A stretch of 64,000 nucleotides of DNA, taken from assembly GCA_964482435.1 (NCBI GenBank), contig CAYZXL010000003.1, positions 69,472 to 133,471 of the forward strand, written 5' to 3'. Under the pieces are notes generated by a model. It was not told the DNA's origin. It ran no database searches and was given only the letters and a program-made list of their open reading frames with translations. Position numbers and translations under genes: made by a program. Shown one piece after another: positions 22,661-49,225 of the stretch. Position 1 is the stretch's first letter, and the number at the start of each line of letters is the position of its first letter. Source of the stretch: an uncultured Verrucomicrobiota bacterium (GTDB lineage: Bacteria; Auribacterota; JABMQX01).

Positions 22661-23128
22661 ATGGGTCGCGGATTCTTCCTTCGTTTGTCCGGCGTGCTCG
22701 CTATGTCAATGTTATTGACCGGCTGTCTTCTCAACACGCCCGAGCGAGTCGTAAGGCTGTTCATAGACAACCTCAGAGCGATTCAGTGGGATGAGATGGC
22801 TCGCCTTGTTGACTGGCCTCAGTCTGCCGAATACTTGCCCGCTGTGCCCGCAACTAATACCGGCGAGGACGAAGCGAAAAGGGAGGTGCTGCTTCAGCTC
22901 GCGGAGAACCTGAGCAGGTTCCCCGTTCGAAAGAAGACCCCCGACCAGACTCGGCATGAGTTTCTTTATTTAAGGCTTTCTCGGCTGGAGCAGATGAACA
23001 AAGGCAAAAACTGGGCGTGGTTTGAAATCACCATCTCCGTAGATGCGCGAATCAAAACCGTCCAAATCCTCGTCATGAAAATAAAACGAATCTGGCGCGT
23101 CGTCTTGACGGACAGCCTTTTCAAATAG
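22661..23128 (+). CDS. lipoprotein, hypothetical
   Basis: Signal plus lipobox LLTGC. 155 aa. Confidence 0.45.
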   Translation: MGRGFFLRLSGVLAMSMLLTGCLLNTPERVVRLFIDNLRAIQWDEMARLVDWPQSAEYLPAVPATNTGEDEAKREVLLQLAENLSRFPVRKKTPDQTRHEFLYLRLSRLEQMNKGKNWAWFEITISVDARIKTVQILVMKIKRIWRVVLTDSLFK

Positions 23129-23219: not shown

Positions 23220-23771
23220 ATGTTTCCCAGGAAGAAATGGTTAGTTTTGCTTGTGGTGGTTTTTCCGGTCTTGCTCGTCAGCGGCTGTCGAAAAGAGAAA
23301 GAACAGCAAAAGAAACCAGCGAGACGACAGGTCCAGAAGAGGGTTGACGCACGCGCCATCAGGGCATGCGAAAGCGCTGTGACAGCTTATCTCGACGCTG
23401 TCGCGGCGAAAGACTTCAAAAAGGCATTGGACTCCATTGACCTCGAACAAATGGTTCGGGAAGCGAGCGAGAAACCGGCCAGCGTTGCCGCCTCCTCGCC
23501 CTCCAACGCCGGCCAGATGAAGGAACAGCTCCTCCTGATGCTGGAGAAGATGCCTCAAGACAAAGGGAAACTCACGTACAAAATCCTCGGCTCGGAGGTC
23601 TCTGGTGACGAGGCGACCGTTGAGGTTGAACTCTACCGAGACGGGACGGTCTCGGATAAGGAAGCCTATGCCCTGGTCAAGACGCCGGATGGGTGGAAGC
23701 TCCGTGGGTCGGCCATTCGTGCCTTGCTCCCTCCTATGAAACCGGCCCTCCCGAGAAACGCTGCCCCATAG
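23220..23771 (+). CDS. lipoprotein, hypothetical
   Basis: Signal plus lipobox LLVSGC. 183 aa. Confidence 0.45.
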   Translation: MFPRKKWLVLLVVVFPVLLVSGCRKEKEQQKKPARRQVQKRVDARAIRACESAVTAYLDAVAAKDFKKALDSIDLEQMVREASEKPASVAASSPSNAGQMKEQLLLMLEKMPQDKGKLTYKILGSEVSGDEATVEVELYRDGTVSDKEAYALVKTPDGWKLRGSAIRALLPPMKPALPRNAAP

Positions 23772-24535: not shown

Positions 24536-25936
24536 ATGCGCTACAGGGCCGTGCTATGCGCTGTGGCAGGAATTGCCGTGCTGTTCACGGAGCGGGATTG
24601 TTGCTCCGATCCTTTCACCTTTTACGATGATTTTGAAGGCTACGCAAACACCACACAGATGAGGGTCGTCTGGGACCCAGACAGCAGCATCTTTCTGGGC
24701 CAGCAGGGTTCCAACCAATATCTCAGGTATCGAGTAGCCGCTGGAAGCGCAAGAAGAGCCTCGACCTGGATAAACCCCACCGGCAGTCTGATGGGAGATA
24801 ATCTCAGCGCCTACGTAAGGTGCACCGCGGTCAATTCGGGGTATGCCTACTTCTACCTCAGGTCAGGGAGTTACGATTACAGGTCTATTGCGCGGTATCC
24901 ACTGAGCACAGGGATGGGATGGGCTACCTTCAGCCTCTCAGACATTGTACCGGACGATTTCGTGCGGTTCAGCGGCAAGGGCACGCCAGACCTCTCCAAT
25001 GTGAACAGACTTGGAGTAACCTTTTGGGTAAACACGCAGGGCCTCGGCTACCAGTACATGGAAGCAGACAACTTCTCAGTCACTCCGGAGCCGTGCGCTC
25101 TGCTTGCGCTCGGTGTGCCATGCGGAATTCTGACCCGATCAATGCTGCGAAGAAAGACACGCTTACGGCCTCGTGTGGTTGGCGCCTCGCTTTCAAGCGC
25201 GCTTTTTAGTCAACAATTTCCGTCTTGTCCTCGCGAGCTATGGGCACGACAAGGCTGTCAGGAGTTCTCCCCTCCCCTACGGGCGCAGTGTTCAGATTTA
25301 TCCCCGGCAAAAAGCGAGTCAGGTGACTGGCGCGCCCTTTGTTCGGGGTGGCCGCGTTTCGTGAGGGTGCCGTTCTTCGACCAGAGCAGCTTCTCCTCCA
25401 CATCCAAGGCCGGGATGAGGGGGCGTGCATCCGCACGGGTTGAACTCGCGGTTGAGCCGCCAGACGCAACGGCGTGCCGTAGCGCGCAAAATTGCGCAAC
25501 ATTCGCACCGGGAACGGACAAGTTTGTACCCTCTTCGGCCTGGAGAACGGACGGAACCCGGCGCCAGGGAATCTTTCGGCAACTGGCCGCATTGTTTTGT
25601 CCATCCCACTATCCAGATTATCCCGGGAAAAACCACCGCTCTATCCGAAATCTCCATCAAGTCAAGACATTTCCGCAAGTTTTTTCCCCGTCATGGGAAC
25701 ATGCGGATTTTTGCCCAAGTTCGCCGCTCGGTTGGCAGCGTTCTTGCTTACCGTCCACCGGTCGTTTCGCCGCAGCGTTGACTCCTGTTGACCGGGCGAA
25801 ACGTCGCGCTAAGGAACTCACCAACTTCGATAGTGTCGCCGTGGGGACTATACAAGTCAAGTCGTTGAGGCGGACTGTGCGCGGAGCCCGCTTCGATTTA
25901 AGTTTTAGACAATCACCACGGGATTTCACTCGATAG
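24536..25936 (+). CDS. PEP-CTERM-like secreted protein with anomalous C-terminal read-through (possible pseudogene or lost stop)
   Basis: Start MRYRAVLCAVAGIAVLF (signal peptide). PEP-CTERM sorting motif VTPEPCALLALGVPCGILTRSMLRRKTR ends about 25162. The frame then continues without a stop for ~260 low-complexity codons to 25936. Confidence 0.45.
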   Translation: MRYRAVLCAVAGIAVLFTERDCCSDPFTFYDDFEGYANTTQMRVVWDPDSSIFLGQQGSNQYLRYRVAAGSARRASTWINPTGSLMGDNLSAYVRCTAVNSGYAYFYLRSGSYDYRSIARYPLSTGMGWATFSLSDIVPDDFVRFSGKGTPDLSNVNRLGVTFWVNTQGLGYQYMEADNFSVTPEPCALLALGVPCGILTRSMLRRKTRLRPRVVGASLSSALFSQQFPSCPRELWARQGCQEFSPPLRAQCSDLSPAKSESGDWRALCSGWPRFVRVPFFDQSSFSSTSKAGMRGRASARVELAVEPPDATACRSAQNCATFAPGTDKFVPSSAWRTDGTRRQGIFRQLAALFCPSHYPDYPGKNHRSIRNLHQVKTFPQVFSPSWEHADFCPSSPLGWQRSCLPSTGRFAAALTPVDRAKRRAKELTNFDSVAVGTIQVKSLRRTVRGARFDLSFRQSPRDFTR

Positions 25937-26007: not shown

Positions 26008-26490
26008 ATGAACAAAGTAGTGAGAGGTCTGGCGGTCGCTCTTGTGACCGTCGCTTTGGTCGGGACAGCGAGCGCTGCCACAAGTACCTCCCAGGTGCAG
26101 GTGACGGTTCCTCTGTTCGATATCCTTTCGGTATCGAACTCCGGGGTGATCACGCTCAGCGTTTCGCAGGGTGATAGCGAGATGACGGGCAGCGATAACA
26201 GCGCGTTGCTCTGGTATGTGCACACCGGCAGCGGCAGCAAGAAGATAACCGCGGCAGTCACCACGGACCCCAGCGGGGCAGACGACATCACGCTTACCGT
26301 CCAGGTTACCGATGGTAACGGTCAACAGACTATTTACCTTTCGGGGACAGCGACGGCGGCGAAGGATGTTTACACAAACATTTCCCGCGGGATTCTTTGG
26401 AACAAAACTGTCGCCTACACCGCCGCTGCGACCACTACTGAGGCAGGGTCCTACACGTTCGTGGTCACATTCACGAGCACGGATCAGTAG
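26008..26490 (+). CDS. SCPU (spore coat U)/Csu-type pilin-like secreted subunit
   Basis: AAAGGAGG RBS. Signal peptide ...GTASA. N-terminal ATSTSQVQVTV donor-strand-like segment. C-terminal GSYTFVVTFTSTDQ resembling the SCPU tail (G-x-Y-x-D-T-V-T-V-T-V). Confidence 0.55.
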   Translation: MNKVVRGLAVALVTVALVGTASAATSTSQVQVTVPLFDILSVSNSGVITLSVSQGDSEMTGSDNSALLWYVHTGSGSKKITAAVTTDPSGADDITLTVQVTDGNGQQTIYLSGTATAAKDVYTNISRGILWNKTVAYTAAATTTEAGSYTFVVTFTSTDQ

Positions 26491-26586
26491 TGCGTCTCTG
26501 TTCATGTGTGAGAGGCCCGGGGGGCCTGAAAGGGCCCCCTCGGGGCCCCTCGAGCAATCGAGGGAGTTTCCAGGGAACAACGCGAG

Positions 26587-27078
26587 ATGAAACTGAGAAG
26601 GTTTTCCAAAGTTGTAAGCTTAATTGTCTCCATCGGAGAAGCAAGTGGCTACTACCCCACTGCGGGAGGGGTATCAATCGCGGTTGTCGGCGACTGGAAC
26701 ACGACTATCAGCGCGACCGACCTAACCCACGGAATAGAGGGTATCCCCAGGGCGATGCGCCCCGCCAGCGCCTTCGAGAGCAGTTGCCGCAGCGCCGCCG
26801 ATCAGATTCGCCTCGAGGTCTCAGGGGCAAGAGGGAGATGGAAGGTCTTTGTTCGCAAGGGCGACGCCAACTGGCCGGACGACTTCGTACTCAAGGTCGA
26901 AAAAAGCTCCGGAGCCGACCGCCGGATAGTAACTGTCAGCGACGCGGATAAAGAGTTTTTCTCCGGCACCGGTAACGGCGTTCACTGCATACAAATCGGC
27001 TTAGATGGGCTATCCGCGGCAGTCGCCGCCGGCACTTACACGACGACGCTTGTTTTCACTATAACGGATGGCGAGTAA
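26587..27078 (+). CDS. second SCPU/Csu-like subunit (minor subunit or adhesin candidate)
   Basis: Ends AAGTYTTTLVFTITDGE, the same tail pattern as the subunit above. The N-terminus is atypical. Confidence 0.45.
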   Translation: MKLRRFSKVVSLIVSIGEASGYYPTAGGVSIAVVGDWNTTISATDLTHGIEGIPRAMRPASAFESSCRSAADQIRLEVSGARGRWKVFVRKGDANWPDDFVLKVEKSSGADRRIVTVSDADKEFFSGTGNGVHCIQIGLDGLSAAVAAGTYTTTLVFTITDGE

Positions 27079-27090
27079 GGGGAGAAAGCG

Positions 27091-27960
27091 ATGAGTAACT
27101 TGAAGACGAAAAGAGAAAAAACATGGGCATGGTGGTTGAGCTTGCTCGTGATGTCTTCCTGGGCAGTTCTTTCGGCCGCCCCTGCATGGGCCGCGACCGC
27201 GGTTGTGGGAGGATTGACGCGCGAGACAACCTCGAGGGTCGGGGAAACTTATCGGGGCGTCGTCGTCTTGAAGAACGATGGCGACGAGCCGCAAGAGGTC
27301 AAACTTTACCAAACCGACTACATGTTTAACAGCGAGGGAACAACGTTCTACGGCGAGCCGGGCAAATTGGAGCGTTCAAACGCCGATTGGGTCTCCTTCA
27401 GTCCCAGCAGGCTGACAATCCCTGCGAAGGGTTCTGCGGGGGTGGACTACACGGTTGAGGTTCCGGACGATAAGTCCATGACGGGGACCTACTGGAGCAT
27501 TCTGATGGTGGAGCCCATAGGGAGCAATTCCCCCGAAGCGACCTATCGGCTCGAGGCCGCAAATGTCTCGGTGGGTATCCGCGAGGTTACACGGTTGGGG
27601 ATTCAGGTTGTGACCCATATCGGGGATACCGGCAAGCCCAGACCATACTTTCTGAGGGCAAGGCTCACGACGAAACAAGACAGCACCCGCGTGCTGTGTG
27701 TTGACCTGGAAAACAGAGGGGAACGATGGATGATCCCCACCGTCTGGGCGGAGGCGTACGACGAGGAGGGGCGTCTCCTCGGCAGTTTCCAGGGCGGAAA
27801 GAAGCGAATCTATCCGGGAACTTCCGTCAGGTACGAGACCGACCTGAGCAATCTGCCGGAAGGGAGCTACAGGGTCCTGGTCGTGGCAGACGCGGGCAAT
27901 GACCAGGTTTTCGGCGCTAACTACACTCTGAAACTTCACAAGGCACCCACTGGAGAATAG
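27091..27960 (+). CDS. putative periplasmic pilus chaperone (PapD-like, tentative)
   Basis: Signal peptide. Beta-sandwich-like alternation with YRGVVVLKNDGDEPQEVKLYQTDYMF and GTYWSILMVEPIG, reminiscent of the PapD N-domain. The position between subunits and the usher-like gene fits Csu gene order. The assignment is tentative. Confidence 0.35.
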   Translation: MSNLKTKREKTWAWWLSLLVMSSWAVLSAAPAWAATAVVGGLTRETTSRVGETYRGVVVLKNDGDEPQEVKLYQTDYMFNSEGTTFYGEPGKLERSNADWVSFSPSRLTIPAKGSAGVDYTVEVPDDKSMTGTYWSILMVEPIGSNSPEATYRLEAANVSVGIREVTRLGIQVVTHIGDTGKPRPYFLRARLTTKQDSTRVLCVDLENRGERWMIPTVWAEAYDEEGRLLGSFQGGKKRIYPGTSVRYETDLSNLPEGSYRVLVVADAGNDQVFGANYTLKLHKAPTGE

Positions 27961-27966
27961 CAGATA

Positions 27967-29196
27967 GTGCGTGGCAAATGGGCACTCATTCTTGCTGGCG
28001 CTGGGCTTCTCGCCGACATCCATACTCAGGCCGCCGGCAGCCCTGTCTCGGTCAGCCCGGCAAGGGAATCGGTTCTCGAGACCAATCCAAGACAGGTGGT
28101 AACCGCGGCTTTTCGGGTTACCAACAGCAGCGAGGAAATGAAAGACCTTCTCGTTCGGGTGGACCTCCCGAGCGGGTGGAATCGTTTGAGCGAGGAGGCC
28201 CCTTTCCAGCTCGGGCCCGGCGAGAGCACCGTCAGACTCATGAGCTTTTTCGTTCCCTCAGAAGCCCTCCCCGGCACTTACGAACTCACCTACTCCCTCT
28301 CTAACCCCGAGACCGGAACTCTTCTTGGCGCGTCTCCCTTGAGTGTGATTGTTGTGCCGTTCACGAAACTGGAGGCGAAGTTACTGCGAGCTCCCGATTA
28401 CGTGGTTGCCGGGGAGGAGTATCAGGCCTTGTTCACTGTTACGAACCATGGGAATGCCATCTGTGCCACACGGGTGAAACTTGACAGTAGCGACGGTTTC
28501 GCGGCCAACCCAGACCCCGCGATGCTCGAGCTTGGCCCGGGACAGTCCAGAGAAGTCGCGGCAACAGTCAAGACCGATCCGGGATTCCGGCAGGAAGGAA
28601 CTCATCGGCTCGAACTGCGGCTGATACCGCCGGAGGGCGACGAGGGCAAACCGTTAGCGTCGGCGAAGAGCTCTGTCGAGATTGTGCCCCAGGTGGCGGG
28701 GACGGACGACCCCTTCCATCGGCTGCCGGTGAAATTTGCCGTTCGCAGCATCACCGAGAGCGGCCTCGCCAGAGACCAGAAGTTCCAGGCCAACTTCATG
28801 GGCTCGGGGACCCTCGACGACGAGGGGAAAAAGCGGATTGATTTTCTGTTTCGCGGGCCAGATGCCCACGATTGGTCAACTCTCGCCGAGAGGGATGAGT
28901 ATCGCCTCAGCTATCAGACCGACAAGTACCAGGTCCATCTCGGCGACCACATCTATTCCCTTTCCCCCTTGACTGAATGGTATCGCTACGGTTGCGGGAT
29001 TGACGTAGGCTTTAATTTTGACCGGTTCAGCCTTGGCGGATACCGCCAGGAAAGCCGCTGGTTCGAGCCGAAAGAGGAGCAGGTCGGCGCACGTTTGGGC
29101 TATCAAATAGCGGATAATTACAGCATCGGCCTTAATTGCCTGAAAAAAAAAACGCTGACCCATCGTTTCGACCAGGGAGTGACGGCGAGATTGTGA
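27967..29196 (+). CDS. outer-membrane usher-like protein, N-terminal fragment (frameshifted at A10)
   Basis: Signal peptide. Three CARDB/DUF11-like Ig domains (VTNSSEEMKDLLVRVDLPSGW, VTNHGNAICATRVKLDSSDGF). Start of beta-barrel-like strands. Terminates 15 codons after the A10 tract at 29143-29152. Confidence 0.5.
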   Translation: MRGKWALILAGAGLLADIHTQAAGSPVSVSPARESVLETNPRQVVTAAFRVTNSSEEMKDLLVRVDLPSGWNRLSEEAPFQLGPGESTVRLMSFFVPSEALPGTYELTYSLSNPETGTLLGASPLSVIVVPFTKLEAKLLRAPDYVVAGEEYQALFTVTNHGNAICATRVKLDSSDGFAANPDPAMLELGPGQSREVAATVKTDPGFRQEGTHRLELRLIPPEGDEGKPLASAKSSVEIVPQVAGTDDPFHRLPVKFAVRSITESGLARDQKFQANFMGSGTLDDEGKKRIDFLFRGPDAHDWSTLAERDEYRLSYQTDKYQVHLGDHIYSLSPLTEWYRYGCGIDVGFNFDRFSLGGYRQESRWFEPKEEQVGARLGYQIADNYSIGLNCLKKKTLTHRFDQGVTARL

Positions 29197-30830
29197 GCCT
29201 GCGGGGATTATTCACTCCGTTGGGGCGCATCGGCCTTGATACCGAATACGCAATAGGCAACAGCGAGACCGGGGATGGCGGCTCACAAGACGACGCGTAT
29301 CGAATCAAGCTTGACGGGCATGAGAAATGGGTCTCTTATCAACTCGAGATGGTTCATGCAGGACCGGACTGCCCCGGCTACTACAGGGACCTCGATTTCA
29401 AATCAGCACAGGTGAGCATCCCGGTTTGGGATTCGCTCAGGCTCAATGCTCAGTGGCGCGACCACCAGCAAAACCCCGACCTTAACCCAGCCTTTCGGAC
29501 CGCCCTTCATAGCAGGCACTCTCAGCTTGGTTTTTCGTACAGGCTTGGTCCTCGGACGAACGTCTCTCTCGACTATCGGAATCGTTTGCTCGAAGACCTT
29601 TTACCGCATCCGGAGTTCGATTCTCGGGAGGAGACCCTGGGGCTGGCTGTGGGGCAACAGTTCAAGAACTTCAGTCTCTGGGTCTCAGCAGAGGGCGGAG
29701 AAGAACTCGACAGCACCGCCGATCGCGATGACGCCAGAGGACCAATTCAGAGGTATTCGCTCTCGGCCCTGCTGAACCCGGCTTCAAATCAATCCTACAA
29801 AGCCTTCCTTCAGTTCGACGAAGGCGGTCTCTGCGCCGGGGGCGACAGCAGGCTAACCGGTGGCGTCGGCGCGTCGTTCAGTCTCGGGAAGACCACTTCA
29901 CTCAGCGTCAACTTCCTGAGGAACCAGTATGCCGGGGCGATAAGCAGAAGCCGCGACCAGTTTGACCTCCTCCTCGGCCACAGGTTTCGGAATGAGCACG
30001 AGCTTCTGGTCCGCGGGAGGTATGCTTTCCATGATAACTCTGTCGAGAAAGACGAGACCTGTGTCATCGTCGAGTATGGCATCCCGTTTTCGGTGCCAGT
30101 GAGCCGCAAGACCAAAACCGCGATGCTCCAGGGCCGGGTTTACGATGCGGAAAATGGCCAGAGGGCAATACCGGGCGTCGTCGTGAGGCTCAACCAGTTG
30201 ACCACCGTCACCGATAGGAGGGGAAACTTCATTTTCGGCTCCCTGAAGCCGGGCAAGTACTATCTCACGCTTGATAAAGCAGGCATCGGCATGAACAGAC
30301 TAACGGTCCAGAGCAGTCCCCTCGGAGTAGTCGTTGCGGGAGGAAAGAGAAATTGGGTCGAGGTGGGCGTTACGCGACGCGCCCGGGTCAAAGGGCGGGT
30401 CGCGGTTTACCCGGCCACGCGCGAGCAGAACGCAACGCCAGGCTGGAATCGGGAAGCCGAGCGCGTCGCCGGGGAAAAAGCCCAGGCCAATGCACCCCCG
30501 GGAGAGCCGGTGTTTACCGCCAACGGCTTGCACGAATCGGCCGACTCATACGGGCTGCCAAATGTCCTGGTGGAGCTTTCGAATTCCTCCGAGGTCCTGC
30601 GCCGCTTCACTGACAGGAAAGGGCGGTTTCTGTTTGAAGATGTGCGGCCGGGGGACTGGACGCTCAAGGTCGTCAACGCCGAGCTGCCGGAGCATCATTA
30701 CCTGGAAAAGGAGTCCTTCTCTCTCGACCTGAAACCCGCCGACGAGAAGGAATTCCTGGCGAGGGTGCTGCCCCGGGAACGACCCATCCAGATAATAGAG
30801 ACCGGCGAGGTGATTGGGCAAACGCCGTAG
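29136..30830 (+). CDS. outer-membrane usher-like protein, C-terminal fragment (continues the upstream ORF in the +1 frame)
   Basis: Amphipathic beta-strand barrel-like region, then two CarboxypepD_reg-like beta-sandwich domains (GRVYDAENGQRAIPGVVVRLN...GKYYLTLDKAG; GRFLFEDVRPGDWTLKVV). Fuses in-frame with 27967-29196 if the A-tract is 11 (or 8) nt. Confidence 0.5.
   Translation: MPEKKNADPSFRPGSDGEIVSLRGLFTPLGRIGLDTEYAIGNSETGDGGSQDDAYRIKLDGHEKWVSYQLEMVHAGPDCPGYYRDLDFKSAQVSIPVWDSLRLNAQWRDHQQNPDLNPAFRTALHSRHSQLGFSYRLGPRTNVSLDYRNRLLEDLLPHPEFDSREETLGLAVGQQFKNFSLWVSAEGGEELDSTADRDDARGPIQRYSLSALLNPASNQSYKAFLQFDEGGLCAGGDSRLTGGVGASFSLGKTTSLSVNFLRNQYAGAISRSRDQFDLLLGHRFRNEHELLVRGRYAFHDNSVEKDETCVIVEYGIPFSVPVSRKTKTAMLQGRVYDAENGQRAIPGVVVRLNQLTTVTDRRGNFIFGSLKPGKYYLTLDKAGIGMNRLTVQSSPLGVVVAGGKRNWVEVGVTRRARVKGRVAVYPATREQNATPGWNREAERVAGEKAQANAPPGEPVFTANGLHESADSYGLPNVLVELSNSSEVLRRFTDRKGRFLFEDVRPGDWTLKVVNAELPEHHYLEKESFSLDLKPADEKEFLARVLPRERPIQIIETGEVIGQTP
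29143..29152 (+). repeat. A10 homopolymer at the ORF junction (candidate slipped-strand phase-variation site)
   Basis: ctgAAAAAAAAAAcgc. A10 gives stop after ...LKKKTLTHRFDQGVTARL. A11 would give the fused protein ...LKKKNADPSFRPG... Confidence 0.6.
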
Positions 30831-42028: not shown

Positions 42029-43378
42029 TCAGAATTCACGAATGTCGAGGCCACTTAGCTTTCGGTAGAGAGAAGGGATGCTGATCCCGAGAATCAGAGC
42101 GGCTTTCTTCTTGTCGCCCTCAGTCTCCCTCAAGACATTCTGAATGTGTACGCGCTCGGAATCTCGCACAACGCTTCTCAAGCTGTGATCGCCGCGTCGT
42201 GTCGTGGCACAGTGCTCGATAAGTCTGGGGGGGAGGTCCTCCGGGTTGATGAGCTCGCTTTCGCATAGAGTAGCGGCTCTCTCTAAGACGTTCTCCAGTT
42301 CTCTGATGTTGCCGGGCCAATCGTACGCCATGAGGAGGTCCAGGGCTTCGGGGCTAACCTTCTTGTCGCCGTTTGCCCGCCTGTTCTGCTGGTTCAGAAA
42401 GTGCCTCACAAGGAGAGGAATGTCCTCTTTCTTTTCCCGAAGAGGTGCGATCTCCACAGGTATCACACTCAGGCGATAGAACAAATCCTCCCTGAACGTC
42501 CCGTTCTTCACGCGTGGGGCGAGTTCCTCATTTGTGGCGGCGATGACCCTGACGTCAATCTTTTTCTGCCTGGTATCCCCCACCCTCTTGATTTCCTTCT
42601 CTTGGAGAACCCTGAGGAGCTTGCTTTGCATCGCGGGGCTCATTGAGCCGATTTCGTCGAGGAAAATCGTCCCCCTGTCAGCGGCGACGAAGACTCCCTC
42701 CTTGTCCGCGTAAGCCCCCGTAAAGGCGCCCTTGGCGTGGCCGAAAAGCTCCGATTCTAAGAGTGTCTCGGGAAGGGCAGCACAGTTGATTGGCTCGAAG
42801 CGTTTGTCCCTCCGCTTGCTGTTGTAATGAATTGCCCGGGCGACGAGTTCCTTGCCGGTGCCGCTTTCGCCGTAGATAAGGATGGTGCTTTCCGTGGGAG
42901 CGACCTTGCGGATGATGGCAAAGAGGTCCTGCATCTGCCTGCTTGTGCCGATGAGCTGATGAAAGCTGTACCTCTCCTGGACCTCCTGCTTGAGTCTGCG
43001 GTTTTCCTGGATGATGGACCTCTGCTCCAGCCCTCGCTGGACGAGGAGGCGCAATTCGTCCATCTTGAAAGGCTTGATCACGTATTCGTAGGCGCCCTTC
43101 TTCATTGCCTCGATTGCGGTCTGAACCGAGGCATAAGCGGTCATCATGATGACGACGATGTCCGAGTCAATCTTCTTAATCTGTTCCAGGACCGCAATGC
43201 CGTCCAGGGGAATCATCTTGATGTCGGCGATTGCCAGGTCAACGCTGTCGGTCCGGATGACGTCGAGTGCCTCCTCGCCGGACAAGGCCGTCAGGACGTC
43301 GTACCCCTCCCTCTTCAACATTATGGAGAGGACGTCGAGAATGCTTTGCTGGTCATCTACGATAAGTATTTTTGCCAT
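42029..43378 (-). CDS. sigma54-dependent response regulator (NtrC/PilR family)
   Basis: Receiver domain (start MAKILIVDDQQSILDVL, D at DLAIADIKM). AAA+ sigma54-interaction domain (GESGTGKELVARAIH, GAFTGA motif, ESELFGH). C-terminal Fis-type HTH. Confidence 0.85.
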   Translation of the reverse strand: MAKILIVDDQQSILDVLSIMLKREGYDVLTALSGEEALDVIRTDSVDLAIADIKMIPLDGIAVLEQIKKIDSDIVVIMMTAYASVQTAIEAMKKGAYEYVIKPFKMDELRLLVQRGLEQRSIIQENRRLKQEVQERYSFHQLIGTSRQMQDLFAIIRKVAPTESTILIYGESGTGKELVARAIHYNSKRRDKRFEPINCAALPETLLESELFGHAKGAFTGAYADKEGVFVAADRGTIFLDEIGSMSPAMQSKLLRVLQEKEIKRVGDTRQKKIDVRVIAATNEELAPRVKNGTFREDLFYRLSVIPVEIAPLREKKEDIPLLVRHFLNQQNRRANGDKKVSPEALDLLMAYDWPGNIRELENVLERAATLCESELINPEDLPPRLIEHCATTRRGDHSLRSVVRDSERVHIQNVLRETEGDKKKAALILGISIPSLYRKLSGLDIREF

Positions 43379-43483
43379 TTCGATAACGCTCCGAGTGAAC
43401 CCACGCGCGGCCGCGCGCTGGACGAGGCGGTCGCAATCATCACCAAATTGCCGCAATTGCGACAGTGAACCTGCATTTGCTTT

Positions 43484-44107
43484 TCAACCCGTACGAGCAA
43501 CGTCGGTTGGCCTCAGTGGTGGAGGCTGCAATGTCGCGTGTTGCCTCCTTCCCGGAATGAGCCGTTCCGAGAGAACCTCCCATTTCTTCGTGTTGAATTC
43601 CGACTCCGAGAGAACGCCCTGCTTCCTCAGCGCATCGAGGCCTTGTAGAAGCTCCAGCGCAGACGCCACCTTGTCTGGGGGCGCCCCCAGGAACAGAGTC
43701 TTCCCGCGTTCAAATTCCTCGGCCGTAACAACGCCCGCCAGGAACAGCCGTCCCAGCCTTTCGATTTCCTGGGCTACGCTCTTCCCGTTTAGAGGAATCG
43801 GGTTAGTGACCTCGACTTTCGCGACGCTATCCTGCCCAATGGTGGCTCGGGCGCAGGCCGCGTTGATGTCGTTCATCAAGGCGACCTCATCGAAAGTCGT
43901 ACGGCCTTTGGAGTTCCTCATTAGCTTGGAGTAGCGACGTCCCAATTCGAGTGTTCTCTCTCGGAGGTCAGGGTTGTTTGGGTCCCGCTTGAGGTTCCCG
44001 AGCGACTCTTGGTATGCCTTTTTTGCCCGGGCCCTTCTGCCGCTCTGCACCGCAAGCGCGACTAGCACCAGCACCATGAAAAACAAAACGCCAGCCACCG
44101 CGTCCAT
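43484..44107 (-). CDS. membrane-anchored protein with two SHOCT-like motifs
   Basis: N-terminal TM (VLFFMVLVLVALAV). Repeats VVTAEEFERGKTLFL and VLSESEFNTKKWEVL resembling the SHOCT short C-terminal domain. Confidence 0.4.
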   Translation of the reverse strand: MDAVAGVLFFMVLVLVALAVQSGRRARAKKAYQESLGNLKRDPNNPDLRERTLELGRRYSKLMRNSKGRTTFDEVALMNDINAACARATIGQDSVAKVEVTNPIPLNGKSVAQEIERLGRLFLAGVVTAEEFERGKTLFLGAPPDKVASALELLQGLDALRKQGVLSESEFNTKKWEVLSERLIPGRRQHATLQPPPLRPTDVARTG

Positions 44108-44213
44108 GTTCTCACCTCCTAACCGCCGAGGCTGAACCCTCTCTCGGCAACACCGGGTTCGCGAGTTCGTTTTTTCGGGAACTGCGGCACTCGGGCGCCC
44201 CGCTGTCGGTGCC

Positions 44214-45980
44214 TTATGGCTGCCGCCGGGCGAGCGTCTCCTGTGCCGGGATGTCCGCTCGGATCACATCCGAACGAGTCTCTTGCCGCACCGCATCGGC
44301 GGAATGGCTCGTCAGGGAGCCCGGGGCTTTGCCTGCTCCCTGCCCCTTCGGAATCACAAGCGCCACCGTGGTCCCTTTCCCTTCCTCGCTGGTGATTTCT
44401 ATCCGTCCGTTGTGCTCTCTGACGATTTTCTCCGCTATGCACAAGCCGATTCCCACGCCTTCTTTCTTTGTCGTGAAAAACGGCTCAAAAACCTTGCTGA
44501 GGGTTTGTGGCGACATGCCGCGGCCGGTATCCGCGACGGTTACAATATAGGAGTCAGTGTCGGCCGGGGAACTCTCCAACTTTATGTAAATAGTGCCGTT
44601 TCCCTCCATCGCCTCCACAGCATTTGAAAGCAAGTTAAGGAAAACCTGCCCCATCTGACATCTATCCGCGGAAACAATCGGTGGCTCCTCCGGCGTGACT
44701 AACTCGACCCGAACGTCTGCCGGCAGCTTCCCTCCCCGCCCGAGCATTTCTATTGATTCCCTGATTATCTCACGAAGATTTTCCTTTTTCATGTCGAGGT
44801 TCCCTTTCCGGGCATAGGCGAGGAAATCTTCGATGATTCTGTTCAAACGAGCCGATTCCCTCAGGACAACCGATAGAAGCTCCTTATTGCTTTCCGACAA
44901 GCCCGGCGACTCCGCGAGCATTTCAATTGACCCGCCGATGGAAGTCAGCGGGTTTCTTATCTCATGTGCTATCCCCGCCGCCAGTTCCCCCGCTGTTCGG
45001 AACTTATCAATCGCCCGAAGCCGCTTTTCCAGCTCCTTGACCTCCGTCAGGTCCGAGAAAACCATCACCTTACCCACAGGCTTGCCCGACCGGTCAAGAA
45101 TCGTCGAAAGATTGAAGCCGACAGGGATCTCCTTCCCCTCAGCGTTGCGAGCCAGGAGCTCTCGCTCGCGAATCCCGGCATCTCCCTTGCGTTCCCGCGG
45201 GTTGTCCAGAGCCTCCTTGAGAGCCCCCATTTGACCGTCCGCGAAGAACTCCATTAGGTTTCGATTATACATCATCTTCGAAGGAACGCCCAGGATTTTT
45301 TCTGCGGCGCGGTTGGCATAGACGATGGCGCTGGAGGTATCCGTCGTGATTAAGCCGCTGTTCATGCTGGAGACAACGTGCTCGTGGAGATTCCTCAACT
45401 CTCTCAGTTCCTCCTTCTCTTTTCTAAGAAGGTTAGCGAGGTATCCGCATAAATAACCAACCATGCAGAAAATGATCGCACGGATGTAAAGGGAGTAAAA
45501 AATCTCCAGATCGCCGGCCCTCTCGCCCGGGGACAGGTGATACCGATGAAAGAGAACAAGGGCTGCGTACAACATGCTGCTCAGAAGAGCGATGGATATG
45601 GTCTGCCGACGATGAAAGAAAAGACTGGCTGTCGTAATTGGAATTATGTAGAGAAAGCCGAAGATGCTCTTCTCCCACCCCGAAAGAGCTACCAGCAGCG
45701 TCACAAGAAACACGTCGGCAAAAATCTGAACGTTTGCGAAGAGCTCGGGGTCGAAGCCCCACTCCAGAAGCAGAACGTAAATCAAAGTCAGCGAGAAAAG
45801 GGCACCGGTAAATAGGTACAGGGAAGGCGCGTAGGTGCGAAAGAACAGCGGCCCAAGGACGAAGACCGCAACCGTCACCAGAAGGCGCATAAGGAGCATC
45901 CGCCGGAGGTTGCCGTTCACCCCGGAGTCAGCCAGCGTGCCCGCGTGGGAGGTGGGGCCGGGTGCCCTTGTTGACTTCAT
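44214..45980 (-). CDS. sensor histidine kinase, PilS-like (multi-TM N-terminus, PAS, HisKA, HATPase_c)
   Basis: About six N-terminal TM helices. PAS (IVYANRAAEKILG). H-box ELAAGIAHEIRNPLTSI. N, G1 and G2 boxes (LLSNAVEAM, DTGRGM, GVGIGL). Start uncertain (45980 or 45899; the ORF is open to 46055). Confidence 0.8.
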   Translation of the reverse strand: MKSTRAPGPTSHAGTLADSGVNGNLRRMLLMRLLVTVAVFVLGPLFFRTYAPSLYLFTGALFSLTLIYVLLLEWGFDPELFANVQIFADVFLVTLLVALSGWEKSIFGFLYIIPITTASLFFHRRQTISIALLSSMLYAALVLFHRYHLSPGERAGDLEIFYSLYIRAIIFCMVGYLCGYLANLLRKEKEELRELRNLHEHVVSSMNSGLITTDTSSAIVYANRAAEKILGVPSKMMYNRNLMEFFADGQMGALKEALDNPRERKGDAGIRERELLARNAEGKEIPVGFNLSTILDRSGKPVGKVMVFSDLTEVKELEKRLRAIDKFRTAGELAAGIAHEIRNPLTSIGGSIEMLAESPGLSESNKELLSVVLRESARLNRIIEDFLAYARKGNLDMKKENLREIIRESIEMLGRGGKLPADVRVELVTPEEPPIVSADRCQMGQVFLNLLSNAVEAMEGNGTIYIKLESSPADTDSYIVTVADTGRGMSPQTLSKVFEPFFTTKKEGVGIGLCIAEKIVREHNGRIEITSEEGKGTTVALVIPKGQGAGKAPGSLTSHSADAVRQETRSDVIRADIPAQETLARRQP

Positions 45981-46006
45981 TGCCGACACGTTCTTGTCCC
46001 CCGGTG

Positions 46007-47215
46007 CTACATATGGACGATGGTGGAAAGTCGGAATATCGGCAGGAACATGCATATCACAATCCCGCCGACGACAATCCCGAGAAAAGCAATGAGAAGA
46101 GGCTCGATCATGGAGGTCAGGCCGCTGACCGCCGCATCCACCTCGGAATCATAGAAGTCGGAAATCTTCGACAGCATCACTTCCAGTTTGCCGGTCTGCT
46201 CTCCGACGGCAATCATCTTGGTGACCATCGGGGGAAACACGTCGCTCGCGGCGAGAGGGCCGGCGATGTTCTCACCCTTCTTGATCTCTTCCATTGCTTG
46301 ATTAACAGCTCGCTCGACGAGCTTATTGCCCGCCGTCCTCGAGACGATGTCGAGGGCGCTGAGGATCGGCACGCCGCTTTTGACGAGAACCGAAAGCGTC
46401 CGGCTGAAACGCGACACAGCCACCTTTCTGAATATTGGGCCGAAGATCGGGAGGTTCACTTTGAATTTGTCAAGGCGCAACCTCCCGGACTCGGTTTTGA
46501 CGTATTTTCTCAAGGCAATGATCCCCACGATGAGGGCGCCGACGCAGAAGGGGAAGTAAGCCCGCATGAAGTTGCTCAGGTTCAAAAGCATCTGCGTGGG
46601 AGTCGGCAAAGCGGAGCCAAAGCTCTCGTAAATCTTACCGAAGACGGGGATGACCTTGATCAAAAGGACGGTGGTGATGATGACGGCCATGCAACTGACG
46701 ATCGCCGGATACATCATGGCGGACTTGACCTTTCGTTTCAGGGCCATGGTGGCTTCCATATAGCTTGCTATCCGGTCGAGAATTTCCGCCAGGGTGCCGC
46801 TGGCCTCTCCGGCCCGCACCATGTTGATGAACAACGAGGAGAAGACTTTCGGGTGAGCCGCCAGGGCATCGGAGAATGTCGCCCCTTCCTCGATGTTTTT
46901 GACTATGTCCTGAAGTACCACCTTCAGGGAAGGGCTTTCCGCTTGCTCGGCGAGAGTGTCGAGAGCCTGGACGAGAGGGAGCCCCGCGTCCACCATCGTC
47001 GCCAGTTGCCTGCTGAATACGACAATGTCTCCTCCCTTTACCTTCCGTTTCCCCTTTTTGATCCCGGTGCCCGAACGTACCTCTTCGGAGACCGAAAGGA
47101 TGATCAGACCCTTGTTCCTGAGAGCGGCGACGACCGCACGCTCGCTCTCCGCTTCCATTGTTGCCAAGATGTCGCGGCCACCTGTGTCTTTGGCAGAGTA
47201 CCTGAAAAGACTCAC
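46007..47215 (-). CDS. type II secretion / type IV pilus inner-membrane platform protein (GspF/PilC family)
   Basis: Two T2SSF repeats. 402 aa, three TM segments. Typical architecture. Confidence 0.85.
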   Translation of the reverse strand: MSLFRYSAKDTGGRDILATMEAESERAVVAALRNKGLIILSVSEEVRSGTGIKKGKRKVKGGDIVVFSRQLATMVDAGLPLVQALDTLAEQAESPSLKVVLQDIVKNIEEGATFSDALAAHPKVFSSLFINMVRAGEASGTLAEILDRIASYMEATMALKRKVKSAMMYPAIVSCMAVIITTVLLIKVIPVFGKIYESFGSALPTPTQMLLNLSNFMRAYFPFCVGALIVGIIALRKYVKTESGRLRLDKFKVNLPIFGPIFRKVAVSRFSRTLSVLVKSGVPILSALDIVSRTAGNKLVERAVNQAMEEIKKGENIAGPLAASDVFPPMVTKMIAVGEQTGKLEVMLSKISDFYDSEVDAAVSGLTSMIEPLLIAFLGIVVGGIVICMFLPIFRLSTIVHM

Positions 47216-47395
47216 GGCTGCATTCCTTTCACTTAGTCAAGAGGTTTACCACGCCCGAAGGTCCCGCCGAAGGCGGGACTAACTTGTCGCCCCGAGAACC
47301 ATCCTGGAAGTAAGTAGAGCAGTAGAGCAGGGGCAAGCCAGTTCCGGGTCTACTCTCTACTCTCCACTGTCTCCTGTCTTGCCCCTGGCGGGCCT

Positions 47396-49114: not shown

Positions 49115-49225
49115 AGCCGTTAGTCTCCCCCGGAGCGCCCGCATGCTGCTGCTTGGGCAGCGGCCGGGCTGTCATTCTGTGGCCCCCCGGAAATCTTACC
49201 TGGGGCTACGCGTACAACGACCGTG

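What the first reader, a model, noticed from the sequence alone, without database searches (positions are those of the whole stretch)
26008..30830. Csu/SCPU-type (archaic chaperone-usher-like) pilus gene cluster in a PVC-like genome
Four co-directional genes are present. Two are secreted subunits with SCPU-like donor-strand N-termini and G-x-Y-T-x-x-V-x-F-T tails. The third is a 289-aa PapD-like chaperone candidate. The fourth is a ~950-aa outer-membrane protein with three CARDB/DUF11-like Ig domains, a barrel-like core and two CarboxypepD_reg-like domains. Order and sizes parallel csuA/B-csuA-csuC-csuD, but the usher-like protein has an unusual domain make-up. If this is a chaperone-usher-like system, it may be previously undescribed for this lineage.
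Basis: partly seen in the sequence, partly recalled or inferred. Interest (0 to 1): 0.75.

Follow-up and report, generated by a model that had tools for sequence, protein, structure and literature searches.

The report
Divergent chaperone–usher-like surface assembly operon
This four-gene operon, conserved in hundreds of environmental Gram-negative species, looks by predicted structure like a pilus chaperone–usher machine but fits no known family, and here its outer-membrane pore gene is interrupted by a slippery run of ten A's.

Summary
The four co-directional genes are real and form a conserved operon, S1–S2–C–U. At least 361 species genomes from about a dozen diderm phyla encode the C protein, and most fetched loci show the same gene order.

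No SCPU, PapD or Usher HMM similarity was found in the window proteins or across the families.

The chaperone–usher analogy does hold at fold level:
- The 289-aa protein C is a two-β-sandwich protein. Its closest relative is the Gram-positive WxL-interacting protein WxLIP. PapD, CsuC and Caf1M chaperones come next.

S1 and S2 are distant paralogs of each other. Their fold could not be modelled, so donor-strand complementation is inferred, not shown.

Six other lineages carry the same one-A-short lesion at the homologous site. This suggests phase variation or transcriptional slippage rather than decay.

Verdict: a previously undescribed, deeply divergent chaperone–usher-like system, not a Csu member.

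The parts
25733..25748 (+). Sigma-54-type -24/-12 promoter-like element, TGGCAGCGTTCTTGCT. It lies 275 nt upstream of the S1 start codon.
   Evidence: One mismatch to TGGCAC-N5-TTGCW. Comparable or perfect elements lie 120-270 nt upstream of the first S1 gene in L010, L012, L013, L035, L047 and L077. In all, 19 hits were seen against about 7 expected from the background rate. The Desulfotalea locus has a sigma-54 activator next to the operon. This is a consensus match only; function is not shown.
26008..26490 (+). S1: secreted 160-aa all-beta subunit candidate (putative major subunit). Signal peptide ...GTASA/ATS; C-terminal strand GSYTFVVTFT.
   Evidence: ORF. The S1 family has 187 ORFs in 78 of 85 loci, usually 1-5 copies per operon. 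It has no Pfam, NCBIfam or PDB sequence match. It is a distant paralog of S2 (hhalign probability 96%, E 3e-9).
26587..27078 (+). S2: secreted 163-aa subunit candidate. It belongs to the conserved W-rich family always found immediately upstream of C (putative minor, adaptor or initiator subunit).
   Evidence: ORF. The S2 family occurs in 57 loci, always adjacent to C. Family consensus: ITVTGSWSETID..GAGSDL..WRVDVRK.D.NWH...YSTTVVYTVVD. It has no Pfam or PDB sequence match.
27091..27960 (+). C: periplasmic protein of two beta-sandwich domains, the chaperone candidate. It is homologous to Gram-positive WxLIP (DUF916+DUF3324) but lacks the C-terminal TM helix.
   Evidence: - The family is about 50% identical across phyla.
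- The family profile hits EfmWxLIP1 (9i25_C) at E 4e-4.
- AF2 model has pLDDT 89.
- Foldseek top hit is 9i25_C at E 6e-15, followed by CfaA, YadV, CsuC, Caf1M, FimC and PapD at E 1e-9 to 1e-7.
- 9 of 40 members weakly hit WxLIP_PGBD, 5 of 40 hit WxLIP_HBD and 0 of 40 hit PapD.
27967..29196 (+). U, 5' part (frame 1, 409 aa). It holds the signal peptide, two Ig-like domains and roughly the first nine strands of the barrel. It ends at a stop 44 nt after the A10 tract.
   Evidence: ORF. Pfam finds NPCBM_assoc and CARDB/FixG_C-like domains. In nearly all related loci this is the N-terminal part of a single 900-1200-aa protein.
29143..29152 (+). A10 homopolymer, the site of the frameshift. One more A, or a -1 slip, joins the two U reading frames. 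It encodes the Lys-rich end of a barrel strand and its loop.
   Evidence: - Sequence read; adding one A restores a 954-aa protein.
- It is the only A/T run of 9 or more bases in the 64-kb window.
- The homologous site carries A7-A10 in about 20 other loci.
- Seven independent lineages are frameshifted, all needing -1. None of 102 tract-less loci is frameshifted.
- The tract maps to the low-confidence loop 398-401 of the model.
29136..30830 (+). U, 3' part (frame 3, 564-aa ORF as listed; the true continuation starts at the tract). It holds the remaining barrel strands and two C-terminal CarboxypepD_reg (transthyretin-like) domains.

Best explanation
The cluster encodes a deeply divergent chaperone-usher-like machine that exports one or more small beta-sandwich proteins and probably polymerises them on the surface of a diderm bacterium.

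**Proposed mechanism (inferred from fold similarity).**
1. S1 and S2 are exported by the Sec pathway.
2. In the periplasm they are captured by C, a soluble two-beta-sandwich protein. Its flexible loop and the following conserved strand (residues about 144-177) would complete the subunit's beta-sandwich, as its Gram-positive homolog WxLIP does for WxL domains.
3. C-subunit complexes dock on the periplasmic N- and C-terminal beta-sandwich domains of U.
4. The large U barrel (about 24-26 strands) passes the subunits to the surface. S1 would be the variable major subunit. S2, conserved and always next to C, would be a minor, adaptor or initiator subunit.

**State in this genome.** The U gene is one A short in an A10 tract. 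Full-length U can only be made after tract-length change (phase variation), RNA-polymerase slippage or -1 ribosomal slippage, so the system is off or throttled.

**Shown versus inferred.** Shown here: gene content, conservation, homology of C to WxLIP, the usher-like predicted architecture of U, and the frameshift with its recurrence. Inferred: strand complementation, polymerisation, the translocation route, the roles of S1 and S2, and the switch mechanism.
For: **Conserved operon.**
- The order s1(-s1)-s2-C-U is conserved across Verrucomicrobiota, Desulfobacterota, Planctomycetota, Spirochaetota, Bacteroidota, Ignavibacteriota, Zixibacteria, KSB1, Bdellovibrionota, Gammaproteobacteria and others.
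- The C family has 738 50%-identity clusters at E<=1e-30.

**C as chaperone.**
- AF2 pLDDT is 89.
- Foldseek top hit is WxLIP bound to long WxL (9i25_C, E 6e-15). About 40 CU chaperone entries follow.
- The family profile hits WxLIP by sequence at E 4e-4.
- WxLIP_PGBD and WxLIP_HBD are hit weakly, in the correct order, in several members.
- Some homologs keep a WxLIP-like Pro-rich linker and C-terminal TM helix.
- C has a low-confidence loop at 144-168 at the position aligned to the WxLIP hairpin. AF2 complex predictions in PMC10599100 show that hairpin becoming a strand that completes the WxL sandwich.

**U as usher.**
- Domain order is beta-sandwiches, large barrel, two beta-sandwiches.
- FimD and PapC are the best hits in two independent structure-comparison methods.
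- Full-length ushers score about 1e-16, against about 1e-7 for other large barrels.
- Some homologs carry Porin_4 or OMP_b-brl Pfam hits.
- Some carry extra C-terminal OmpA or SPOR peptidoglycan-binding domains, which place the C-terminus in the periplasm.

**Subunits and host.**
- S1 and S2 are small, secreted paralogs with strongly alternating first and last strands.
- The host is a diderm: it has a Kdo transferase.
Against: - No sequence-level similarity links any component to CU families.
- The fold of S1 and S2 was not modelled because the structure jobs were exhausted. An incomplete Ig fold and a donor strand are therefore untested.
- Foldseek TM-scores are low (0.29-0.40).
- A plug domain could not be checked because no coordinates were available.
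- The U model is of a homolog, not of the window protein.
- WxLIP itself is described as a surface anchor, not as an assembly chaperone.
- The usher-like gene is out of frame in this genome.
Confidence: 0.55

Rival explanations
1. It is a bona fide member of the archaic (sigma) Csu/SCPU chaperone-usher family, only too diverged for easy recognition.
For: - Gene order and sizes resemble csuA/B-A-(B)-C-D.
- CsuC complexes are among the structural hits of C (6fqa, 5d6h, 6fjy).
- Ushers are the top hits of U.
- The subunit tail GxYTxxVxFT resembles pilin F-strands.
Against: - No PF05229 (SCPU), PF00345/PF02753 (PapD) or PF00577 (Usher) hit was found at E<=1 for the window proteins. None appears among 102 family members scanned at E<=1 to 10.
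- Family profiles do not reach CsuA/B, CsuC or any usher chain in the PDB at E<=1 to 10.
- C is closer to WxLIP than to any CU chaperone, both in sequence and in fold.
- The terminal domains of U (NPCBM_assoc/CARDB-like and CarboxypepD_reg) are not those of ushers.
Confidence: 0.05
2. It is the diderm counterpart of the Gram-positive WxL/WxLIP surface-display complex. S1 and S2 would be non-polymerising surface proteins held by C-like strand insertion, and U would be an outer-membrane anchor or translocon. The product would be a surface complex rather than a fibre.
For: - C is homologous to WxLIP.
- Some C homologs retain the WxLIP TM helix.
- The Gram-positive order small WxL, WxLIP, large protein mirrors S2, C, U.
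- The S2 and WxL C-terminal motifs are alike: tYSTTv.yTv against tYkSTLTWEL.
Against: - S1 and S2 show no significant profile similarity to WxL domains (hhalign probability below 2%) and have no PF13731 hit.
- The window's C lacks a membrane anchor.
- A barrel of about 26 strands flanked by periplasmic beta-sandwiches is what a polymer-secreting usher looks like.
- Multiple S1 paralogs per operon are typical of pilins.
Confidence: 0.2
3. U is a large substrate channel or porin for nutrient uptake or polysaccharide export. S1, S2 and C would be periplasmic or surface accessory binding proteins, with no protein secretion involved.
For: - Some homologs are annotated 'predicted porin' or carry Porin_4.
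- NPCBM_assoc and CarboxypepD_reg domains are common in carbohydrate-active and SusC-type proteins.
Against: - No TonB-box or plug (Plug PF07715) hit and no glycan-enzyme genes occur in the conserved operon.
- Full-length ushers beat all other barrels by about nine orders of magnitude in Foldseek.
- The strict linkage with a WxLIP/PapD-like two-domain protein and small secreted beta proteins is not explained.
Confidence: 0.07
4. In this genome the cluster is simply a dying pseudogene locus. The A10 frameshift would be an inactivating mutation, or an assembly error, with no regulatory meaning.
For: - The zero-frame product stops after 409 aa, inside the barrel.
- No RNA structure downstream would stimulate ribosomal frameshifting (z = -0.03).
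- All five assemblies of this population show the same A10, so no switching is seen.
Against: - The frameshift is the only lesion. One added A restores a 934-1003-codon frame in all seven frameshifted lineages.
- The lesion is always at the same homopolymer and always in the same direction.
- None of 102 tract-less genes is frameshifted (Fisher p 7e-8).
- The tract is kept in genomes of up to 67% G+C.
- Identical A10 in the window and four separate assemblies argues against random assembly error.
Confidence: 0.1

Closest known systems
FimD / PapC outer-membrane ushers (classical chaperone-usher pathway; Pfam Usher PF00577)
   Same: - They are the best structural matches of the U-homolog model in Foldseek (3rfz_B E 7.5e-16 over 831 columns; PapC 7lhg_C 3e-11).
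- The overall plan is the same: periplasmic N-terminal beta-sandwich, very large barrel, two C-terminal beta-sandwich domains.
- The gene lies directly downstream of a two-Ig-domain protein.
   Different: - There is no sequence similarity.
- U has two N-terminal Ig-like domains of NPCBM_assoc/CARDB type instead of one usher NTD.
- Its C-terminal domains are of CarboxypepD_reg (transthyretin-like) type.
- About 26 predicted strands against 24 in ushers.
- A plug domain is not verified.
- Some homologs add OmpA or SPOR domains.
WxLIP (DUF916 + DUF3324) of Gram-positive WxL clusters; PDB 9i25/9i1y; PMC10599100
   Same: - It is the closest relative of C by sequence profile (E 4e-4), by fold (E 6e-15) and by weak Pfam hits to both of its domains in the right order.
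- A flexible loop sits at the aligned position of the WxLIP hairpin that is predicted to complete the partner's beta-sandwich.
- It lies between a small secreted protein gene and a large protein gene.
- Some C homologs keep the C-terminal TM helix.
   Different: - The window's C has no TM helix and lives in a diderm periplasm.
- Its partners are not recognisable WxL domains.
- The downstream large protein is a beta-barrel, not a WxL adhesin.
- There is no LPXTG protein.
PapD-like periplasmic chaperones (PapD, FimC, Caf1M, CfaA, CsuC)
   Same: Two beta-sandwich domains in an L-shape. Dozens of entries match the C model at Foldseek E 1e-9 to 1e-7, with TM (target-normalised) about 0.5. The operon position is the same.
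   Different: - No PapD_N or PapD_C HMM hit occurs in any of 40 members.
- C is about 50 residues longer.
- The conserved cleft residues of PapD (Arg8/Lys112) could not be mapped.
Csu pili / SCPU (archaic sigma chaperone-usher fimbriae)
   Same: Operon logic: small secreted subunits first, then chaperone, then usher. Small all-beta subunits with alternating terminal strands.
   Different: No SCPU signal was found in 62 subunit-family members. No PDB sequence hit to CsuA/B was found. The subunit fold is untested.

Membership tests
Chaperone-usher pathway, archaic sigma/Csu type | Subunits carry the SCPU domain (Pfam PF05229) | tested here: not met
   No PF05229 hit for S1 or S2 at E<=1. None among 35 S1-family and 27 S2-family members at E<=10. 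No CsuA/B chain was reached by the family profiles.
Chaperone-usher pathway (all clades) | Usher belongs to Pfam Usher PF00577 (with PapC_N/PapC_C) | tested here: not met
   No such hit for either half of U and none in the precomputed Pfam lists of 62 homologs. The U family profile hits no usher chain in the PDB at E<=1.
Chaperone-usher pathway (all clades) | Usher architecture: large (24-strand) barrel flanked by a periplasmic N-terminal domain and two C-terminal beta-sandwich domains | tested here: met
Chaperone-usher pathway (all clades) | Plug domain inserted in the barrel that gates the pore | not testable with these tools
Short strands and the most conserved motif (FLFRGPD...RDEYRLSY...GDRxYSLSPLTE, U residues about 293-345) could be a plug, but this is speculation.
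Chaperone-usher pathway (all clades) | Chaperone belongs to PapD_N/PapD_C (PF00345/PF02753) | tested here: not met
   0 of 40 C-family members hit these models at E<=1. The family profile does not reach any PapD-like chain in the PDB.
Chaperone-usher pathway (all clades) | Chaperone has the two-Ig-domain boomerang fold | tested here: met
   The AF2 model has pLDDT 89. Foldseek matches CfaA, YadV, CsuC, CupB2, Caf1M, FaeE, EcpB, FimC, PapD, SafB and DraB at E 1e-9 to 1e-7.
Chaperone-usher pathway (all clades) | Subunits are incomplete Ig folds completed by donor-strand complementation or exchange | not tested
Only indirect cues exist: alternating N- and C-terminal strands and the flexible loop in C.
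WxL cluster (Gram-positive) | WxLIP protein = DUF916 (WxLIP_PGBD) + DUF3324 (WxLIP_HBD) | tested here: inconclusive
   Homology is supported by profile E 4e-4 to EfmWxLIP1 and Foldseek E 6e-15. However, Pfam hits are below the gathering score: window C E 0.034; 9 of 40 members hit PGBD and 5 of 40 hit HBD.
WxL cluster (Gram-positive) | At least two WxL-domain proteins (PF13731) adjacent | tested here: not met
   No PF13731 hit in S1 or S2 families. hhalign against WxL profiles gives probability below 2%, with only a 10-13-residue C-terminal motif matching.
WxL cluster (Gram-positive) | C-terminal transmembrane helix on WxLIP | tested here: not met
   The window's C ends 9 residues after the last strand. 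A minority of homologs (P0185, P0187) do have a Pro-rich linker and a hydrophobic helix.

The most novel reading that the evidence does not exclude
This is a seventh, deeply divergent class of chaperone-usher machinery. It would be widespread in environmental diderm phyla. Its chaperone would share ancestry with the Gram-positive WxLIP protein, implying that WxL surface complexes and chaperone-usher pili descend from one strand-complementation system. Its usher would be controlled by a conserved poly(A) tract acting as a phase-variation or transcriptional-slippage switch.
Probability: 0.35. Interest if true: 0.85.

Novelty: new variant of a known kind. Interest (0 to 1): 0.7.

Why it matters
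Chaperone-usher pili are classified into six clades that all share the same usher, chaperone and pilin families. They are known almost only from Proteobacteria and a few other groups.

A structurally analogous but sequence-unrelated operon would extend this secretion and assembly principle to lineages where surface fibres are essentially unstudied. The operon occurs in Verrucomicrobiota, Planctomycetota, Desulfobacterota, Bacteroidota, Spirochaetota, Zixibacteria and others.

The link between its chaperone and Gram-positive WxLIP offers an evolutionary bridge between monoderm and diderm surface-display systems. It also suggests a chaperone-like role for WxLIP.

The recurrent one-A-short poly(A) tract in the pore gene is a ready-made case for testing contingency loci or transcriptional recoding in uncultured bacteria.

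An intact copy exists in a cultured, sequenced organism, Desulfotalea psychrophila, so all of this is directly testable.

Tried and rejected
1. **Pfam and NCBIfam scans** of all five ORFs found no SCPU, PapD or Usher hit.
2. **Family-wide Pfam scans** of the S1, S2 and C families gave no consistent family for S1 or S2.
3. **Family profiles against PDB sequences** gave only WxLIP for C and nothing meaningful for S1, S2 or the U barrel.
4. **Test of S1/S2 as WxL domains.**
   - I fetched Enterococcus mundtii WxL clusters from plasmids.
   - I built a shallow and then a deeper WxL profile.
   - hhalign gave probability below 2%, so the homology claim was rejected. A short C-terminal motif resemblance remains.
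5. **Programmed -1 ribosomal frameshift with a downstream stimulator.** The 80 nt after the tract fold no better than shuffles (z = -0.03). Hairpin-stimulated PRF is therefore not supported. Tract-length switching or RNA-polymerase slippage remain possible.
6. **Natural S-C fusion proteins** as evidence for interaction: none found.
7. **Sigma-70 promoter and terminator scan:** no more than chance.
8. **Rfam and tRNA scans of the window:** nothing found.
9. **Literature searches** for a prior description of this Gram-negative cluster found none in the held library. This is not proof of absence.

Full report
**1. What is in the window**

The + strand between 26008 and 30830 carries the following ORFs:
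- S1, 26008-26490, 160 aa.
- S2, 26587-27078, 163 aa.
- C, 27091-27960, 289 aa.
- A large gene read as two overlapping ORFs: 27967-29196 (409 aa, frame 1) and 29136-30830 (564 aa, frame 3).

The two halves of the large gene meet at an A10 run, ctgAAAAAAAAAAcg, at 29143-29152. Inserting one A gives a single 954-aa protein, here called U. Four independent Logan assemblies of related samples (ERR4334730, ERR4334733, ERR4334734, ERR4334736) carry identical genes and the same A10.

All four proteins begin with signal-peptide-like sequences. The region has ordinary composition for the window (58% G+C).

Neighbouring genes are chromosomal housekeeping genes:
- topoisomerase I;
- a XerC/D-like recombinase;
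- a Kdo transferase, which implies LPS and hence a diderm host;
- a Band_7 protein.

**2. The genes are a conserved operon**

The 289-aa protein has 249 homologs at E<=1e-3 in the indexed search. They are about 45-60% identical across phyla and nearly all are unnamed. An exhaustive profile search finds 4684, 1714 and 738 50%-identity clusters at E<=1e-3, 1e-10 and 1e-30 respectively.

A scan of one genome per species found relatives in 361 species. The best hits are MAGs labelled Verrucomicrobiota, at 75% and 58% identity. The others are labelled:
- Desulfobacterota or 'Deltaproteobacteria';
- Phycisphaerae and Pirellulales;
- Spirochaetota;
- Bacteroidota and Ignavibacteriota;
- Zixibacteria and KSB1;
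- Armatimonadota;
- Bacteriovoracaceae;
- Gammaproteobacteria;
- Nitrospirae;
- Acidobacteriota.

In these loci the order is almost always small subunit gene(s), C, then a single 900-1200-aa U. The commonest layouts are s1-s2-C-U (as in the window) and s1-s1-s2-C-U. Bacteroidota and Ignavibacteria show s1(x3-5)-C-U-s1.

Desulfotalea psychrophila, a cultured organism with a complete genome, has the operon with an intact 938-aa U next to a sigma-54 activator.

**3. Test of the Csu/SCPU assignment**

Every sequence-based test was negative:
- Pfam and NCBIfam give no SCPU, PapD_N/C or Usher hit for any ORF, even at E<=1.
- Scanning 35 S1-family, 27 S2-family and 40 C-family members individually gives none either.
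- Family profiles searched against all PDB chain sequences do not reach any Csu, Fim, Pap or Caf protein.

Membership in the archaic sigma clade, or in any recognised chaperone-usher clade defined by these families, is therefore not supported.

**4. What C is**

The C-family profile hits one thing in the PDB: EfmWxLIP1 of Enterococcus faecium (9i25_C, 9i1y_A), at E 4e-4 over residues 91-269.

The AF2 model has pLDDT 89 and pTM 0.78. It shows a signal helix and two beta-sandwich domains.

Foldseek against the PDB ranks the hits as follows:
- 'WxLIP bound to long WxL' comes first, at E 6e-15.
- A long series of chaperone-usher chaperones follows: CfaA, YadV, CsuC, CupB2, Caf1M, FaeE, EcpB, FimC, PapD, SafB and DraB. 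They score E 1e-9 to 1e-7, with target-normalised TM about 0.5.

Across the family, 9 of 40 members weakly hit WxLIP_PGBD, 5 of 40 hit WxLIP_HBD and none hits PapD. A few homologs (P0185, P0187) carry a Pro-rich linker and a C-terminal hydrophobic helix, as WxLIP does.

In WxLIP, a loop that is disordered in the free protein is predicted by AF2 complex modelling to become a strand that fills a gap in the WxL beta-sandwich (PMC10599100). C has a low-confidence loop at residues 144-168, followed by a very conserved strand RYGIQMVTHIGDTG, at the aligned position.

C is therefore a soluble, periplasmic homolog of WxLIP with the general shape of a pilus chaperone.

**5. What U is**

Pfam sees two N-terminal Ig-like domains (NPCBM_assoc, and CARDB/FixG_C-like) and two C-terminal CarboxypepD_reg domains. 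It sees nothing in the 470 residues between them.

Among 62 homologs:
- some carry weak Porin_4 or OMP_b-brl hits;
- one is called 'predicted porin';
- several have an extra C-terminal OmpA or SPOR domain. This places the C-terminus in the periplasm.

Because the window's gene is frameshifted, I modelled the closest intact homolog. This is P0121 from locus L006, 956 aa and 60% identical, modelled with a 40-sequence alignment. Mean pLDDT is 85.5. The model shows:
- a signal helix;
- two beta-sandwiches at 27-240;
- about 26 long antiparallel strands at 250-713;
- two beta-sandwiches at 718-816 and 860-938.

Foldseek ranks FimD (3rfz_B, E 7.5e-16, 831 aligned columns) and other FimD and PapC entries first. 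Other big barrels (LptD, MtrB, TonB-dependent receptors) score only about 1e-7.

The barrel alone is therefore not diagnostic. The full domain plan, sandwiches then large barrel then two sandwiches, is the usher plan. Whether there is a plug could not be checked.

**6. What S1 and S2 are**

An iterative HMM search over the loci gave 187 S1-like ORFs in 78 of 85 loci. It gave 57 S2-like ORFs, always directly upstream of C.

The two families are distant paralogs (hhalign probability 96%, E 3e-9). Both are about 140 residues when mature and are T/S/V-rich. Each has an alternating first strand (QTVTxxV in S1, ITVTGSW in S2) and a conserved last strand (TVTYTLTD in S1, TYSTTVVYTVVD in S2).

They match nothing in Pfam or among PDB sequences. 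Because C is a WxLIP homolog, I tested whether they are WxL domains. Against profiles built from Enterococcus WxL proteins, hhalign gives probability below 2%. Only the last 10-13 residues align (tYSTTv.yT against tYkSTLTWEL).

This is the main gap in the argument.

**7. The frameshift**

The A10 run is the only A/T homopolymer of 9 or more bases in the 64-kb window. This genome uses AAG more often than AAA for lysine (147 against 102).

The tract encodes the KKK at the end of a barrel strand and its loop, which corresponds to the low-confidence loop 398-401 of the model.

I could locate both flanks of this site in 128 genome and metagenome loci. The results were:
- 102 loci have no tract, and none of them is frameshifted.
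- The 8 loci with A7-A8 are all in frame.
- Among loci with A9-A10, seven independent lineages are frameshifted. These are the window, L007 (identical to L088), L009, L054, L089, L116 and L123. They come from Verrucomicrobiota-like, Syntrophales, Ectothiorhodospiraceae and other backgrounds, in genomes of up to 67% G+C.
- About as many A9-A10 loci are in frame (L010/L011/L016/L018, L013, L036, L093).
- The association of frameshift with tract gives Fisher p = 7e-8.

All seven frameshifted genes need the same correction: one more A, or a -1 slip. In all seven, that single correction restores a 934-1003-codon frame with no other lesion.

L009 is visibly an A10-to-A9 derivative of its in-frame relatives. 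The RNA downstream of the tract is not unusually structured (z = -0.03), so a dnaX-type stimulated frameshift is not indicated.

The remaining readings are:
- a contingency locus, meaning reversible tract-length change;
- RNA-polymerase slippage on A9-A10, which from established knowledge of bacterial polymerases on runs of 9 or more A's yields a fraction of +1A transcripts;
- less likely, systematic homopolymer under-calling. Five concordant assemblies argue against this.

I could not distinguish the first two.

**8. Regulation and surroundings**

A sigma-54-type element, TGGCAGCGTTCTTGCT, lies at 25733, 275 nt upstream of S1. Similar, often perfect, elements lie 120-270 nt upstream of the first subunit gene in several other loci: 19 hits against about 7 expected. 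This fits the adjacent sigma-54 activator in Desulfotalea.

The window also encodes a PilS/PilR-type pair and type IV pilus genes at 42-51 kb. No link to this operon is shown.

A PEP-CTERM-like protein gene directly upstream is shared with the closest relative L006. It is not part of the operon elsewhere.

**9. Conclusion**

The Csu/SCPU label is wrong.

The idea of a chaperone-usher-like system is supported at fold and operon level for two of the three component types. It is untested for the third, the subunits.

The best description is a previously undescribed, widespread, deeply divergent chaperone-usher-like surface assembly system. Its chaperone is homologous to Gram-positive WxLIP. Its usher-like gene carries a recurrent poly(A) switch, which is in the off or throttled configuration in this genome.

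I found no description of this system in Pfam, NCBIfam or the searchable literature. That is not proof that none exists.

Noticed in passing
window 29143-29152; L007 8046, L009 2301, L054 3799, L089 6925, L116 2037, L123 6966: The usher-like gene is interrupted by a one-A-short poly(A) tract (A9/A10) at the same loop-coding site in seven independent lineages. All need a -1 correction, and none has any other lesion. None of 102 homologs without the tract is frameshifted. This could be a contingency locus or a transcriptional-slippage site.
   Followed up: yes
L014 1468 (A10), L028 7613 (A9), L021 7331 (A9), L029 5842 (A8), L015 7555 (A8): The longer, Planctomycetota-type U genes (about 1100-1200 aa) carry a second poly(A) tract in their N-terminal extension, in the context LKKK(N/V)VED. 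In L014 and L028 the gene is split there into a 175-281-aa ORF and a roughly 910-aa ORF. L029 and L015 (A8) are intact.
   Followed up: partly
loci L041 6852, L044 5384, L051 1995, L056 4943, L059 2651, L066 2296, L070 2581, L076 6877 and about 10 more: In Bacteroidota and Ignavibacteria loci, a T8-T10 run recurs about 20 codons into the U gene, in the signal-peptide region. All were in frame in the loci seen. It may be a poly-Phe coding accident in low-GC genomes or another slippery tract.
   Followed up: no
window 24536-25936 (+): The upstream ORF has a PEP-CTERM-like sorting signal (VTPEPCALLALGVPCGILTRSMLRRK) at about residue 183-208. Instead of stopping there, it runs on for about 255 residues of low-plausibility sequence. 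The L006 homolog is 60% identical and matches only residues 1-209. The cause could be a lost stop codon or a sequence error.
   Followed up: partly
window 25733-25748; L010 4116, L012 2897, L013 3992, L035 833, L047 2397/1319, L077 1202: Sigma-54-type -24/-12 elements lie 120-275 nt upstream of the first subunit gene, which implies long leaders. Enrichment over background is about 3-fold.
   Followed up: partly
proteins P0185 (528 aa) and P0187 (408 aa): Some homologs of the chaperone-like protein have a Pro-rich linker and a C-terminal hydrophobic helix, plus a further cytoplasmic-looking tail in P0185. This is the WxLIP architecture, which the window's protein lacks.
   Followed up: partly
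proteins P0145, P0155, P0158, P0159, P0174: Some U homologs end in an OmpA-family (PF00691) or SPOR (PF05036) peptidoglycan-binding domain. This suggests the machine can be tethered to the cell wall.
   Followed up: no
window 42029-50737 (-): A type IV pilus gene set lies here: a PilR-like sigma-54 response regulator (42029-43456), a PilS-like kinase (44214-46055), PilC/T2SSF (46007-47215) and an MshEN-domain protein (49226-50737). This genome therefore has a second, conventional fibre system and sigma-54-dependent regulation.
   Followed up: no
plasmid record CP069367.1 (hit H1); protein P0337: A record labelled as a Klebsiella pneumoniae plasmid carries an unannotated gene 94% identical to Enterococcus faecium WxLIP1. 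A WxL protein is labelled Serratia marcescens. These are probably mislabelled or contaminated database records.
   Followed up: no
window 22661-23128 and 23220-23771 (+): Two small ORFs with lipobox-like signal peptides (LLTGC, LVSGC) and no Pfam match lie upstream of the cluster. They are not conserved next to the operon in other loci.
   Followed up: no
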